From positions 1 to 33,477 of the IMG/VR virus record IMGVR_UViG_3300029193_000102: 33,477 bases of DNA; one strand, 5' to 3'. This DNA comes from a virus (lineage: Duplodnaviria > Heunggongvirae > Uroviricota > Caudoviricetes). This document shows, piece by piece, positions 892-17,043 of the stretch. The notes under the pieces were generated by a model. The model was not told the DNA's origin and searched no databases. It worked only from the letters and a program-made list of their open reading frames with translations. The position numbers were made by a program, and so were the translations under genes. Every line of letters begins with the position of its first letter. Positions within the stretch are counted from its first letter, which is position 1.

Positions 892-981
892 GGAGAGATG
901 CCGGAGCGGCTGAACGGACCGGTCTCGAAAACCGGAGTGGGGGCAACTCCACCGGGGGTTCAAATCCCCCTCTCTCCGCCA
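892..981 (+). tRNA. serU: tRNA-Ser, anticodon CGA; prophage integration target
   Basis: 90-nt sequence GGAGAGATGCCGGAGCGGCTGAACGGACCGGTCTCGAAAACC...GGTTCAAATCCCCCTCTCTCCGCCA with long variable arm, T-loop GGTTCAAATCC and 3' CCA; anticodon loop CTCGAAA. Confidence 0.9.
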
Positions 982-5401: not shown

Positions 5402-5459
5402 AAAAAGGGCGGCAGAGCAGTCACGGAGTAAAACTGATACCGCCAAACGTCACCAGAAA
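5402..5459 (-). ncRNA. dicF: DicF small RNA (53 nt at 5407..5459) with 3' stem-loop and U-tract
   Basis: Minus-strand sequence TTTCTGGTGACGTTTGGCGGTATCAGTTTTACTCCGTGACTGCTCTGCCGCCC followed by TTTTT matches recalled DicF; lies upstream of dicB as in the Qin dicB operon. Confidence 0.7.
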
Positions 5460-12906: not shown

Positions 12907-13026
12907 ATATTTAGACTAAAGAGTTTGTAACGCTATGTAAGTGATTTTTTCTGGTTTAGATATTTATATGTCCGGCCAAATTGAGGTGTGTTTAAATGTT
13001 ATTGCTCATTGATTGTAGGGGGAATA

Positions 13027-13206
13027 ATGAAAAACGCATTGCAGTTTTTGTTTGTTGCGTTCTGGTTGTTCGCATCATGTATGCCCATCATCTTCACAGC
13101 AAGGTATATGGAAAAAATTGATGTTTTGATATTAATGTTTGGACATATAAATGCCCTTTTTTTAGGGGTGTTCATGGCGGTCATGTGCATTGAATACTGG
13201 CGGTAA
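13027..13206 (+). CDS. Small two-helix membrane protein (59 aa) in an AT-rich islet
   Basis: ATG 13027 with GGGGGA upstream; two hydrophobic stretches; surrounding DNA is conspicuously AT-rich. Confidence 0.4.
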   Translation: MKNALQFLFVAFWLFASCMPIIFTARYMEKIDVLILMFGHINALFLGVFMAVMCIEYWR

Positions 13207-13465
13207 ATACAGCGAACGCCATTGGTTTAGTTGGATATTTACTGTGCCGGACAAAAACGGTTTGCGGGGAAATCTTAGTTAAGTAGAATAACTGCGGGTG
13301 CTTGAGGCTATCTGTCTCAGGCATGAACACCAAAAGGCAGATAGAGAAAAGCCCCAGTTAACATTACGCGTCCGGCAAGACGCTTAACATTAATCTGAGG
13401 CTCAATCTATGAACGGCAAATCTAGGTTAGCCTCTTACGTGCCGAAAGGCAAGGAGAAGCAGGCT

Positions 13466-13621
13466 ATGAAGCAGCAAAAGGCGATGTTAGTCGCCCTGAT
13501 CGTCATCTGTATTACCGTCATTGTGACGGCACTGGTAACGAGGAAAGACCTCTGCGAGGTACGAATCCGAACCGGCCAGACGGAGGTCACTGTCTTCACA
13601 GCTTACGAACCTGAGGAGTAA
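13466..13621 (+). CDS. hok: Hok/Gef-family type I toxin (HokD/RelF-like)
   Basis: 51 aa MKQQKAMLVALIVICITVIVTALVTRKDLCEVRIRTGQTEVTVFTAYEPEE, near-identical to recalled HokD; AAGGAGAAG SD 7 nt upstream. Confidence 0.8.
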   Translation: MKQQKAMLVALIVICITVIVTALVTRKDLCEVRIRTGQTEVTVFTAYEPEE

Positions 13622-13691
13622 GAGACCAGGCGAGGGGGAAATCCCTCGCCACCTCTGATGAGTCAGGCATCCTCAACGCACCCGCACTTAA

Positions 13692-13717
13692 CCCGCTTCG
13701 GCGGGTTTTGTTTTTTC
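13692..13717 (+). terminator. Rho-independent terminator after hok
   Basis: CCCGC-TTCG-GCGGG followed by TTTTGTTTTTTC. Confidence 0.55.
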
Positions 13718-16486: not shown

Positions 16487-16804
16487 GTGGTAAATTGGCG
16501 GCTGGTGGGTGTGGTGGTTGTTGCTTTCCCGTTGCTGAAAAAGAAAACGCCAGACTGTTAGCCGGGTATCAGTTATCTGGAGAAATTTTTAAATACCTCA
16601 CAATTCAGGCGGTTGACTGTTGTCTGGTTTGCGGGGAGTTTGTTAAAAGAAACTGGCATGGTGAATCCCCCTGTGCGGAGGGGCAATCAGCAACTGGTGT
16701 TTTGTCACCGACCCTTATCCTTTCTGTGCGGGTTCAGGTGCTGATACTGAACTCACCGGGAGGCACCCGGCATCATGTGCATGATGATACAGATACGCGG
16801 CTTT

Positions 16805-16830
16805 AGCCCCTCTCCGGAGGGGCTTTCTTG
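16805..16830 (+). terminator. Rho-independent terminator (plus strand)
   Basis: AGCCCCTC-TCCG-GAGGGGCT followed by TTCTTG. Confidence 0.45.
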
Positions 16831-16835
16831 TGGGC

Positions 16836-16861
16836 AAAAAAAAGCCCGAGTGGGTTCGGGC
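16836..16861 (-). terminator. Rho-independent terminator (minus strand), convergent with the previous one
   Basis: A8 run then GCCCGA-GTGGGT-TCGGGC on the plus strand, i.e. hairpin plus U-tract on the minus strand. Confidence 0.4.
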
Positions 16862-17043
16862 AACAGCATGAGATATACATTTTTATAATCGAATGGATTT
16901 TAACCAGAATTCATAAGGCTGCGCAACTGCGCGGTCTTTTTCGAATTGCGGGCTGTCGTCTCTCTTCTGCCATTGTCCTGTAACTTCCGGACTTCAGCCT
17001 GCTCCTTATCTGACTCACAATATTATCCCGGCCGGGAGGATTC

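What the first reader, a model, noticed from the sequence alone, without database searches (positions are those of the whole stretch)
13230..13717. Hok-family type I toxin locus with structured leader and in-frame upstream extension
The 51-aa toxin is near-identical to recalled HokD/RelF and has a strong SD. The ~230-nt upstream leader contains paired elements (for example CTATCTG ... CAGATAG around 13305..13345), and the 3' UTR has a GGCGAGGG/CCCTCGCC hairpin before the terminator. An in-frame upstream ATG at 13409 would add 19 residues, which could be a mok-like coupling frame or chance. No relBE pair is present upstream, unlike K-12 Qin as I recall it.
Basis: partly seen in the sequence, partly recalled or inferred. 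Interest (0 to 1): 0.45.

Follow-up and report, generated by a model that had tools for sequence, protein, structure and literature searches.

The report
Complete hok/mok/sok toxin-antitoxin module in prophage
This is an ordinary, intact copy of the well-known hok/mok/sok RNA-regulated toxin–antitoxin cassette carried by a lambda-like prophage of Escherichia, the full-length version of the truncated hokD (relF) gene of E. coli K-12.

Summary
Window 13466..13621 encodes a 51-aa Hok/Gef toxin (Pfam 1.2e-22) that differs from K-12 HokD at 3 residues. The in-frame ATG at 13409 is mok. Rfam's hok-leader model ('sok', RF01794) scores 112 bits on the + strand.

All parts of the plasmid R1 paradigm are present. 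They are a hok promoter, a 5' tac element paired to a 3' fbi element, an anti-SD box, and an antisense Sok gene (13417..13347). The Sok -35/-10 boxes are identical to the experimentally validated sokW promoter. There is also a GC-rich 3' hairpin and a terminator. The full mRNA folds far better than shuffles (z = -7.1), and the key helices covary across 34 family members.

The locus is 90.7% identical to hokW-sokW of phage 933W, whose Sp5 copy is a proven type I TA system. About 3,900 of 5,426 complete E. coli genomes carry at least 80% of it.

There is no relBE. The K-12 form shares sequence only from 13452 onward.

Verdict: already known, low interest. One side observation may deserve follow-up. 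A 21-nt patch (13402..13422), the Sok 5' tail and its target loop, is hypervariable and occurs as about 20 discrete alleles.

The parts
13262..13289 (+). hok/mok promoter: -35 TTGCGG (13262..13267), 16-nt spacer, -10 TAGAAT (13284..13289), 6 nt before the inferred +1 at G13296
   Evidence: Read from the sequence. The -10 is nearly invariant in 98 prophage homologues. It sits at the same distance from the GG(G)YGC 5' end as the TATAAT of the R1-like and hokC loci. It falls below the threshold of the consensus scanner. Activity is inferred.
13296..13716 (+). Primary hok/mok mRNA, about 421 nt. By analogy with R1, the stable full-length form ends near 13684 and the active truncated form ends just after the hairpin at 13650.
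   Evidence: Rfam RF01794 starts at 13296. The terminator was found. Fold z = -7.07. The same tac-to-fbi delineation gives 399 nt for R1-type loci. I recall R1's full-length hok mRNA as about 398 nt.
13296..13307 (+). tac (translational activator element), the 5' end GGGUGCUUGAGG
   Evidence: It pairs with 13671..13683 in the MFE fold of the full transcript. In 3'-truncated transcripts it pairs with 13349..13355 instead. It is invariant in the prophage group.
13298..13324 (+). Candidate metastable 5' hairpin (13298..13308 with 13314..13324) that would hold tac during transcription
   Evidence: It appears as an alternative fold (transcript ending at 13665). It is also in the RNAalifold consensus, with compensatory changes (columns 8-13 / 21-26).
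13308..13344 (+). Leader hairpin CUAUCUGUCU / AGGCAGAUAG, the 'CTATCTG...CAGATAG' of the finding
   Evidence: MFE folds. It is part of the Rfam consensus structure.
13349..13355 (+). ucb (anti-SD box), AAGCCCC
   Evidence: In the full-length fold, 13350..13353 pairs with the mok SD region 13399..13402. In the truncated fold, 13349..13355 pairs with tac. The names follow PMC9841398.
13347..13417 (-). Sok antisense RNA gene, about 71 nt: a 14-nt single-stranded 5' tail, then a long hairpin followed by UUUU
   Evidence: The coordinates were transferred from the sokW annotation in phage 933W through alignment A1. The fold is -29.9 kcal/mol with z = -4.93. Transcription was not tested here.
13424..13452 (-). 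Sok promoter: -35 TTGCCT (13452..13447), 17-nt spacer, -10 TAACCT (13429..13424)
   Evidence: It is identical to the same region of 933W. In the Sp5 hokW-sokW locus, primer YO-421 changed this -10 (plus-strand TAGGTTA to CCGGCTC) and abolished antitoxin activity.
13397..13434 (+). Sok-target hairpin of the truncated mRNA. The mok SD GAGG (13397..13400) lies in stem 13397..13402 / 13429..13434 (dcb). The upper stem is 13404..13409 / 13423..13428. The loop holds the mok AUG.
   Evidence: Folds of the truncated transcripts. The structure matches the Rfam consensus.
13402..13422 (.). Hypervariable patch covering the Sok 5' tail, the target loop and mok codons 1-5
   Evidence: Mean pairwise difference is 0.31, against 0.048 for the rest of the leader and 0.072 for hok third codon positions. 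There are about 20 discrete alleles.
13409..13621 (+). mok reading frame, 70 codons, here in frame with hok
   Evidence: ORF list. The ATG is invariant, the frame is variable, and the ORF always passes the hok start.
13466..13621 (+). hok toxin gene, 51 aa, HokD-type, with SD AAGGAG at 13451..13456
   Evidence: Pfam HOK_GEF 1.2e-22. PHROG 251 'MokW-like host killing' 5.4e-32. The exact sequence occurs on at least 999 public contigs and is named HokD.
13461..13604 (+). Long-range helix joining the hok start region (13461..13471) to the hok 3' coding region (13594..13604)
   Evidence: MFE fold. Covariation is strong across 34 family members. Example column pairs: 205/331 AU:14 GC:14, and 210/328 AU:23 CG:10.
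13629..13650 (+). GC-rich 3' UTR hairpin GGCGAGGGG / CCCUCGCC. It probably blocks 3' exonucleases and so sets the end of the active truncated mRNA.
   Evidence: Fold. Helix 8 has compensatory changes in 5 of 8 pairs. The role is inferred from the R1 model (PMC1635323 figure legend).
13671..13683 (+). fbi (fold-back inhibition element), CCUCAACGCACCC
   Evidence: It pairs with tac at -21.5 kcal/mol, against -12.9 +/- 2.5 for shuffled tac. It covaries with tac between lineages.
13690..13716 (+). Intrinsic terminator: stem 13690..13707, then a T-run
   Evidence: Terminator scan.

Best explanation
The region 13262..13716 is a complete, apparently intact hok/mok/sok type I toxin-antitoxin cassette. 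It sits as a self-contained 'moron' in the early region of a lambdoid prophage, between the replication genes and the DUF968-RusA-Q genes.

Proposed mechanism, following the plasmid R1 paradigm:
1. A weak promoter (-10 at 13284..13289) makes a stable mRNA that starts at G13296.
2. In the full-length mRNA the 5' end (tac, 13296..13307) pairs with the 3' UTR (fbi, 13671..13683).
3. That pairing leaves the anti-SD box (ucb, 13349..13355) free to sequester the mok Shine-Dalgarno sequence (13397..13400). The mRNA then neither is translated nor binds Sok.
4. Slow 3' trimming back to the GC-rich hairpin (13629..13650) removes fbi.
5. tac then pairs with ucb. The mok SD and AUG are displayed in a hairpin (13397..13434).
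6. Ribosomes translating mok (13409 onward) open the helix that holds the hok start. This allows translation of the 51-aa membrane toxin Hok.
7. The unstable antisense Sok RNA (13417..13347) is made from a promoter at 13452..13424. Its 5' tail binds the target loop and blocks mok translation, and therefore hok translation. The duplex is marked for RNase III cleavage.
8. When Sok synthesis stops, the stable mRNA pool is translated and the membrane is damaged. This could happen on loss of the element, on transcription shut-off or on prophage induction.

What is shown here: the ORFs, the family membership, the predicted folds, the covariation, and the identity of the Sok promoter with the validated sokW promoter.

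What is inferred: the transcript ends, the processing, the toxicity of this allele, and the biological role. The role is most likely prophage-linked. It could be stabilisation of the element, or assistance to lysis after induction as reported for hokW-sokW.
For: - Toxin family: Pfam HOK_GEF 1.2e-22 and PHROG 251 'MokW-like host killing' 5.4e-32.
- RNA family: Rfam RF01794 at 112.4 bits against a gathering score of 59, covering the full model at 13296..13471.
- tac-fbi pairing: present in the MFE fold. The whole-mRNA fold has z = -7.07.
- Refolding: truncated transcripts refold to tac-ucb plus the SD(mok)/dcb hairpin, as described for R1 (PMC9841398).
- Covariation over 34 diverse hok mRNAs: 95.9% of cells are paired, against 41-47% when partners are slid. 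The covariation score is 0.270 against 0.05-0.105. 102 cells have changes on both sides, against 5-21.
- Lineage-specific tac/fbi pairs: GGGUGC/GCACCC, GGCGC/GCGCC, GGGCGC/GCGCCC, and GGGUGCUCUGGAU/GAUCCAUGAGCACCC in Mixta.
- mok: the ATG is invariant and the ORF always passes the hok start, while its frame varies.
- Sok: the promoter is identical to that of sokW, where a -10 mutation abolished antitoxin activity and HokW was toxic. The Sok fold has z = -4.93.
- Relatives: 90.7% nucleotide identity to the 933W locus annotated mokW/hokW/sokW. Matches occur in 4,934 of 5,426 complete E. coli genomes.
- Module boundaries: conservation starts sharply at about 13283 and ends at about 13710.
- Genomic context: lambdoid prophage.
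Against: - No expression or toxicity data exist for this copy.
- Both promoters fall below the threshold of the consensus scanner.
- The two NCBIfam Hok models that hit score below their curated cut-offs (46.8 against 73, and 37.6 against 89). These are models of other Hok subfamilies.
- Chromosomal hok loci of K-12 and some other strains are reported not to mediate post-segregational killing (preprint 10.1101/2025.08.07.668861).
- For helix 1, the 3' ends of the aligned mRNAs were chosen by complementarity to tac. The 'percent paired' for that helix is therefore partly circular. The compensatory U-A / C-G exchange and the other helices are not affected.
- The biological role is unsettled. T4 exclusion by R1 hok/sok was not reproduced in a 2026 study (PMC13047441).
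Confidence: 0.9

Rival explanations
1. The cassette is structurally complete but functionally silent. On this view it is a decaying relic, like the K-12 chromosomal hok loci, that is transcribed too weakly to kill or that carries a non-toxic Hok allele.
For: - Chromosomal hokA, hokB and hokC loci were reported not to mediate post-segregational killing (summarised in the preprint).
- Both promoters are weak matches to consensus.
- The window's Hok carries three substitutions relative to the commonest HokD.
Against: - No regulatory element is damaged. tac, ucb, the mok SD and ATG, dcb, the Sok promoter, fbi and the terminator are all identical or nearly identical to the consensus of 98 homologues.
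- The three substitutions (V9, I16, T42) are residues found in HokC and in the P1-like HokD.
- The exact protein is on at least 999 contigs.
- A single chromosomal copy of R1 hok under its own promoter is lethal without Sok (PMC9841398).
- The 86%-identical HokW is toxic, and its locus is active in a single-copy prophage.
Confidence: 0.12
2. The in-frame 70-aa product (Mok fused to Hok) is itself the functional toxin, or a distinct isoform of it, rather than a by-product of translational coupling.
For: - In this lineage mok shares frame and stop codon with hok. mok translation therefore yields a protein that contains all of Hok.
- 78 of 93 parsed prophage loci keep this in-frame arrangement.
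- Sources name the 70-aa form 'Hok family toxin' or 'toxin MokC'.
Against: - 15 of 93 close relatives have mok out of frame (19-aa or 68-aa unrelated peptides), with unchanged hok and unchanged regulatory elements.
- R1 mok is also out of frame: the start codons are 58 nt apart, from the numbering in PMC9841398.
- In R1 only translation up to the hok start is needed.
- The first five mok codons are the most variable part of the locus.
- hok has its own strong SD.
Confidence: 0.08
3. The main role is defence against superinfecting phages by abortive infection, rather than prophage stabilisation or help with lysis.
For: - R1 hok/sok was reported to exclude T4 (cited).
- hok genes are enriched four-fold in prophages, and the authors raise defence as a possibility.
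Against: - T4 protection by hok/Sok was not reproduced in MG1655 or BLR (PMC13047441).
- No enrichment of hok next to defence systems was found.
- For the closest studied relative, hokW-sokW, the measured effect was faster lysis and two-fold more phage release after induction.
Confidence: 0.15

Closest known systems
hokW-mokW-sokW of Stx2 phage 933W / Sakai prophage Sp5 (AF125520; Takada et al. 2021, PMC8621323)
   Same: - It has the same architecture, element for element: the hok -10, tac, ucb, the Sok gene and promoter (identical -35/-10), an in-frame 70-codon mok, the fbi and the 3' hairpin.
- Nucleotide identity is 90.7% over 90% of the query. Hok is 86% identical.
- Both lie in lambdoid prophages.
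   Different: - The Sok 5' tail and target loop are a different allele, with 6 of 14 positions differing.
- The Hok C-terminus differs (FTAYEPEE here, FVDYESEK in HokW).
- 933W lacks the hairpin terminator found after fbi here.
- The position in the phage genome differs. In 933W the locus lies beside an 8.4-kb gene near the end of the record. Here it lies between the replication genes and the DUF968/RusA/Q genes.
hok/mok/sok (parB) of plasmid R1
   Same: - It has the same set of regulatory elements and the same predicted switch from the full-length to the truncated fold.
- mok is 70 codons with 19 codons before hok.
- Distances agree within 2-3 nt: mok ATG at +114 here against +116 in R1, and hok ATG at +171 against +174.
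   Different: - Hok is only 37-39% identical.
- tac/fbi are GGCGC/GCGCC in R1-type loci and GGGUGC/GCACCC here.
- R1 mok is out of frame with hok.
- The Sok hairpin here is 16 nt longer than the Rfam consensus.
- R1 is plasmid-borne, whereas this locus is prophage-borne.
hokD (relF) of the relBE-hokD operon in the Qin prophage of E. coli K-12
   Same: The toxin differs at 3 of 51 residues. The hok SD, the 3' UTR hairpin, the fbi and the terminator are shared.
   Different: - The K-12-type locus matches only from window position 13452 onward.
- relB-relE replace the hok promoter, tac, ucb, the mok start, the Sok gene and half of the Sok -35. What remains is an orphan fbi.
- The window has the complete ancestral-type module and no relBE.
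hokC/mokC/sokC (gef) of E. coli
   Same: Hok is 84% identical. The tac is the same GGGUGCUUGAGG. mok is in frame and shares its stop codon with hok.
   Different: It is a core-chromosome locus next to nhaA. In the example fetched it is disrupted downstream by an IS element, so fbi is lost. The Sok hairpin and the target loop differ.

Membership tests
[quoted passage not shown] | Small (about 50 aa) hydrophobic Hok/Gef toxin matching Pfam PF01848 above its gathering score | tested here: met
   79.7 bits against a cut-off of 22, covering the full 42-position model. The family-invariant residues of alignment A2 are kept: C15, T25-R26-K27, L29-C30-E31, R35, E40-V41, F44, Y47-E48.
[quoted passage not shown] | Overlapping upstream mok frame, with its own SD, whose translation runs through the hok initiation region | tested here: met
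   ATG at 13409 with GAGG 8 nt upstream. The 70-codon ORF passes the hok ATG. The ATG is invariant and the ORF always passes the hok start in 93 homologues, whatever the frame.
[quoted passage not shown] | cis-encoded antisense Sok RNA gene overlapping the mok start, with its promoter inside the mok/hok-SD region and a terminator-like hairpin | tested here: met
   Met at the sequence level only. The -35 TTGCCT, 17-nt spacer and -10 TAACCT are identical to the validated sokW promoter. The 71-nt RNA has a 14-nt tail and a hairpin, z = -4.93. Transcription itself cannot be tested with these tools.
[quoted passage not shown] | Long-range 5'-3' pairing (tac-fbi) that closes the full-length mRNA | tested here: met
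   12 bp with one bulge in the MFE fold. The energy is -21.5 kcal/mol, against -12.9 +/- 2.5 for shuffled tac. There is a compensatory U-A to C-G exchange (18, 14, plus 2 U-G) across 34 sequences, and further lineage-specific co-changes.
[quoted passage not shown] | Anti-SD (ucb) sequestration of the mok SD in the full-length form, then refolding to tac-ucb plus the SD/dcb target hairpin after 3' truncation | tested here: met
   Predicted in silico for transcripts ending at 13716, compared with those ending at 13670 or 13660. The Rfam consensus structure of the open form is matched. Real processing cannot be tested here.
[quoted passage not shown] | Match to the Rfam covariance model RF01794 above its gathering score | tested here: met
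   112.4 bits against 59, model positions 1-157 of 157. The match is on the hok-sense strand.
[quoted passage not shown] | Toxicity of Hok and its neutralisation by Sok; a stable mRNA and an unstable antisense RNA | not testable with these tools
   Only indirect evidence is available. HokW (86% identical) is toxic and is neutralised by sokW expressed from an identical promoter.
NCBIfam Hok subfamily models (NF007279 PRK09738; NF007290 HokA equivalog) | Score at or above the curated cut-off | tested here: not met
   46.8 against 73, and 37.6 against 89. The toxin is therefore not HokA or a PRK09738-type Hok. RefSeq names the identical sequence HokD.
relBE-hokD (relF) operon arrangement of K-12 Qin | relB and relE immediately upstream of hokD, with co-transcription and no hok leader | tested here: not met
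   There is no RelB or RelE similarity anywhere in the window (best E = 4.4). A complete leader is present. Homology with the relBE-hokD form begins only at 13452.
PHROG 251 'MokW-like host killing' (phage moron) | Profile match, and location in a phage or prophage as a self-contained unit | tested here: met
   E = 5.4e-32 over 50 of 50 positions. Conservation has sharp limits at about 13283 and about 13710, with unrelated flanks. The context is a prophage.

The most novel reading that the evidence does not exclude
The 21-nt patch 13402..13422 covers the Sok 5' tail, the loop and upper stem of its target hairpin, and mok codons 1-5. It may be under diversifying selection that creates mutually orthogonal Sok/hok specificity classes. 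Such classes would let several hok/sok-bearing prophages share one cell without one Sok silencing or 'disarming' another's toxin, much like immunity or incompatibility groups.

Supporting data:
- Among 98 unique prophage loci the patch is 4-6 times more diverse than hok third codon positions or the rest of the leader.
- It occurs as about 20 discrete multi-substitution alleles.
- Predicted tail-target binding is -21.5 to -23.5 kcal/mol for cognate pairs and -3.6 to -16.2 for non-cognate pairs.

The window carries one of the commoner alleles. Its Sok tail has the weakest predicted non-cognate binding of the six common alleles compared.

I found no description of this in the papers I searched, but the search was limited.
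Probability: 0.35. Interest if true: 0.45.

Novelty: already known. Interest (0 to 1): 0.15.

Why it matters
As an annotation result it matters little. The cassette is one of the most thoroughly studied RNA-regulated toxin systems, and this copy is a common allele present in most E. coli genomes.

It is useful in three small ways:
- It shows what the truncated K-12 hokD looked like before relBE replaced its leader. The K-12 copy still carries an orphan fbi.
- RefSeq-style annotation marks only 'hokD' here. It omits mok, Sok and the roughly 420-nt structured mRNA. The Rfam family named 'sok' in fact models the hok-sense leader, so strand calls based on it would be wrong.
- The hypervariable Sok-tail/target-loop patch gives a directly testable hypothesis about the specificity and coexistence of multiple prophage hok/sok modules.

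Tried and rejected
- Consensus promoter scan. It found no sigma-70-like site on either strand. Both promoters have only 3 of 6 matches in one hexamer. They were placed by homology with R1-like, hokC and sokW loci instead.
- Global RNAduplex of long upstream against downstream windows. It produced meaningless, very long duplexes. I replaced it with a search using a 12-13-nt tac query.
- Test for allele exclusion between co-resident copies. 10 of 11 same-genome pairs carry different Sok-tail alleles. Random expectation from the allele frequencies is about 0.89, so the data do not discriminate.
- YUNR U-turn motif in the target loop, checked by eye. It is present in the hokW allele (CUGA) but there is no clear one in the window's loop, so I did not use it.
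- Second half of tac-fbi in one fixed column register. R1-type loci lack the bulge that Escherichia-type loci have. Only the first 6 pairs were counted formally, and the rest was shown lineage by lineage.
- Structure prediction of the 51-aa peptide. I judged it uninformative and did not run it.
- relBE elsewhere in the window. None was found.
- A second hok copy in the window. None was found.
Full report
**1. What is in the sequence**

The window region 13230..13717 contains a 51-codon ORF (13466..13621). An in-frame upstream ATG at 13409 extends it to 70 codons.

The 51-aa product matches Pfam HOK_GEF over the whole model (79.7 bits, cut-off 22). It also matches PHROG 251 'MokW-like host killing' (5.4e-32). 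It differs from the RefSeq HokD protein WP_000813254.1 at three conservative positions: I9V, L16I and A42T. Each replacement residue occurs in HokC or in the P1-like HokD. The exact sequence is on at least 999 public contigs under the name HokD.

- AAGGAG at 13451..13456
- the CTATCTG.../...CAGATAG hairpin (13308..13317 / 13335..13344)
- the GGCGAGGGG/CCCTCGCC hairpin (13629..13650)
- the terminator (13690..13707 plus a T-run)

RelB and RelE have no similarity anywhere in the window.

**2. Identification**

Rfam's RF01794 ('sok antitoxin') matches 13296..13471 end to end at 112.4 bits, against a gathering score of 59. The match is on the + strand. The model ends in the hok SD and AUG. It therefore describes the sense-strand hok leader in its 'open' fold, not the antisense RNA itself.

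The 488-nt query finds matches in 4,934 of 5,426 complete E. coli genomes, and 3,906 of them cover at least 80% of it. The best identity is 97.7%, and the matches are annotated simply as hokD. It also hits 101 phage records. One is phage 933W, at 90.7% identity, where mokW, hokW and the antisense sokW are annotated.

The same locus in prophage Sp5 has been characterised experimentally. HokW is toxic. sokW expressed from its own promoter neutralises it. A mutation of the sokW -10 abolishes that protection. The locus speeds lysis and doubles phage release after mitomycin C (PMC8621323).

The mutagenic primer YO-421 changes plus-strand TAGGTTA to CCGGCTC. The window has the identical sequence at 13423..13429. 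In fact it is identical to 933W from 13423 to well into hok.

**3. Anatomy on both strands**

By homology, the hok -10 is TAGAAT (13284..13289), 6 nt before G13296. This is the same spacing as the TATAAT of the R1-like and hokC loci.

The minimum-energy fold of 13296..13716 (-166 kcal/mol; z = -7.07, no shuffle as good) shows two key features:
- The 5' end 13296..13307 pairs with 13671..13683 (tac-fbi).
- 13350..13353 (ucb, the anti-SD) pairs with 13399..13402, which overlaps the mok SD GAGG (13397..13400).

Transcripts cut at 13670 or 13660 refold. The 5' end now pairs with 13349..13355. The mok SD and AUG sit in a hairpin formed by 13397..13402 / 13429..13434 and 13404..13409 / 13423..13428.

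This is the full-length to truncated switch described for R1 (PMC9841398; PMC1635323). Distances from +1 agree with R1 within 2-3 nt.

On the minus strand the Sok promoter is TTGCCT (13452..13447), a 17-nt spacer, and TAACCT (13429..13424). It precedes a 71-nt RNA (13417..13347) with a 14-nt free 5' tail and a long hairpin followed by UUUU (z = -4.93). These coordinates coincide with the 933W sokW annotation transferred through the alignment.

**4. Comparative tests**

A pattern scan of IMG/VR returned 120 loci, of which 98 are unique. Their conservation profile shows a sharply bounded module running from about 13283 to about 13710. The flanks are unrelated (pairwise difference 0.54), as expected for a mobile 'moron'.

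The mok ATG is invariant and the ORF always runs past the hok ATG. Its frame differs between loci: 78 in frame, 9 in the +2 frame (19 aa) and 6 in the +1 frame (68 aa). In R1 the two start codons are 58 nt apart, so mok is out of frame there as well. What is conserved is its translation, not its peptide.

A protein-guided scan of species-representative genomes gave 80 further Hok loci, from Escherichia, Kluyvera, Photorhabdus, Pantoea, Mixta, Sodalis, Erwinia, Buttiauxella and plasmids. tac and fbi co-vary between these lineages:
- GGGUGC with GCACCC
- GGCGC with GCGCC
- GGGCGC with GCGCCC
- GGGUGCUCUGGAU with GAUCCAUGAGCACCC

Cognate tac-fbi energies average -19.6 kcal/mol, against -12.9 +/- 2.5 for shuffled tac.

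On a 34-sequence alignment of whole mRNAs, the tested structure is paired in 95.9% of cells, against 41-47% when partners are slid. The covariation score is 0.270 against 0.05-0.105.

That structure includes a long-range helix tying the hok start (13461..13471) to the hok 3' coding region (13594..13604). It also includes the GC-rich 3' hairpin. Both have many compensatory changes.

One caveat applies. The 3' ends of the aligned mRNAs were picked by complementarity to tac, so the pairing percentage of that one helix is partly circular.

**5. Relation to K-12 hokD**

Loci with the K-12 Qin gene order (flxA-ydfV-relB-relE-hokD-rem) match the window only from 13452 onward.

In these loci relBE has replaced the hok promoter, tac, ucb, the mok start, the Sok gene and half of the Sok -35. 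The SD, the hok coding sequence, the 3' hairpin, an orphan fbi and the terminator remain.

The window therefore carries the complete form from which the K-12 gene is derived. From my own knowledge, the loss of regulatory elements in K-12 hokD was noted by Pedersen and Gerdes (1999). I did not retrieve that paper.

**6. Context**

The window is a lambdoid prophage integrated at a tRNA-Ser gene next to mtfA in related genomes. It carries int, exo, dicB/DicF, cI/cro-like genes, replication genes, then hok, DUF968, RusA, Q, lysis genes and head-tail genes. In 933W the homologous module sits elsewhere in the genome, which again indicates a mobile cassette.

**7. Mechanism and role**

The regulatory mechanism I commit to is the R1 pathway described in the best explanation.

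Shown here: the elements, the predicted folds, the covariation and the promoter identity.

Inferred: the transcript ends, the 3' trimming, RNase III cleavage, and the toxicity of this allele.

The biological role is less certain. Three roles have been proposed:
- Stabilisation of the prophage.
- Help with lysis after induction, as measured for hokW-sokW. This is the best-supported role for a prophage copy.
- Defence against phages. This has become doubtful, because T4 exclusion by R1 hok/Sok was not reproduced.

hok genes are four-fold enriched in prophages.

**8. Side observation**

Inside the conserved module, positions 13402..13422 are hypervariable. The mean pairwise difference is 0.31, against 0.048 for the rest of the leader and 0.072 for hok third codon positions. 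Entropy reaches 1.9 bits per column. The patch occurs as about 20 discrete alleles.

The patch is exactly the Sok 5' tail and its target loop, which is the site of first contact in R1. Predicted tail-target energies are -21.5 to -23.5 kcal/mol for cognate pairs and -3.6 to -16.2 for non-cognate pairs.

Co-resident copies usually differ (10 of 11 pairs), but that is what allele frequencies predict by chance.

The idea of specificity classes is therefore open. It is the most novel reading that the data allow.

**9. Verdict**

The feature is an already known system in a typical place. Interest is low.

Noticed in passing
window 13402..13422: A hypervariable patch sits inside the otherwise conserved hok/sok module. 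It covers the Sok 5' tail, the target loop and mok codons 1-5. There are about 20 discrete alleles among 98 prophage loci. Diversity is 0.31, against 0.05-0.07 in neighbouring and synonymous sites. The Sok tails are predicted to be largely orthogonal between alleles.
   Followed up: partly
window 13296..13471 (+): The Rfam family RF01794, named 'sok antitoxin', matches the hok-sense strand and ends in the hok SD and AUG. It models the hok mRNA leader. The real Sok gene is on the opposite strand at 13417..13347. Strand assignments taken from this family would be inverted.
   Followed up: yes
window 13604..13607 (Hok Tyr47 codon TAC followed by G): [quoted passage not shown] This copy keeps the motif. 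Editing was not testable here.
   Followed up: no
L002:3171-3290 (K-12-type relBE-hokD locus): The K-12-type hokD keeps an orphan fbi (CCTCAACGCACCC) and the 3' hairpin, although its tac partner and the whole leader have been replaced by relBE. It is a molecular fossil of the complete module.
   Followed up: yes
window 13466..13621 versus L001:6237-6392: All four nucleotide differences in the hok coding sequence between the window and its closest genomic relative (97.7% identity overall) are non-synonymous, affecting three codons. None is synonymous. The numbers are small, and the variant is itself common.
   Followed up: partly
window 13461..13471 with 13594..13604: A long-range helix ties the hok start codon region to the 3' end of the hok coding sequence. 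It has strong compensatory variation across the family, for example AU:14/GC:14 at one pair. This fits a requirement for mok-translating ribosomes to open the hok start.
   Followed up: partly
window 5407..5458 (-), 16627..16835 (+), 16839..16891 (-), 892..978 (+): Other Rfam hits in the window are DicF (76.7 bits), STnc100 (130.6 bits), AsxR (63.0 bits, exactly at its gathering score and directly abutting STnc100 on the opposite strand) and a tRNA. By comparison with strain EC931, the tRNA is the tRNA-Ser attachment site next to the integrase.
   Followed up: no
window 12988..13206 (+): A 72-codon hydrophobic ORF lies just upstream of the hok promoter. It has no Pfam, NCBIfam or PHROG match. 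The region is not conserved among hok-bearing prophages, and nothing is annotated there in close relatives.
   Followed up: partly
L129, L147, L156, L189, L188, L190 (genome contigs); H29 (phages): Escherichia- or plasmid-type hok loci turn up in records attributed to unrelated hosts. HokD-type copies (93-95% amino-acid identity) are in records labelled Veillonella parvula (a MAG), Acinetobacter idrijaensis and Xanthomonas pisi. R1-type copies (43% identity) are in records labelled Streptomyces morookaense, Ferruginibacter and Oscillibacter. An 'Actinobacillus phage' record matches the DNA query at 94.4%. These are most likely contamination or mis-binning in the source records.
   Followed up: no
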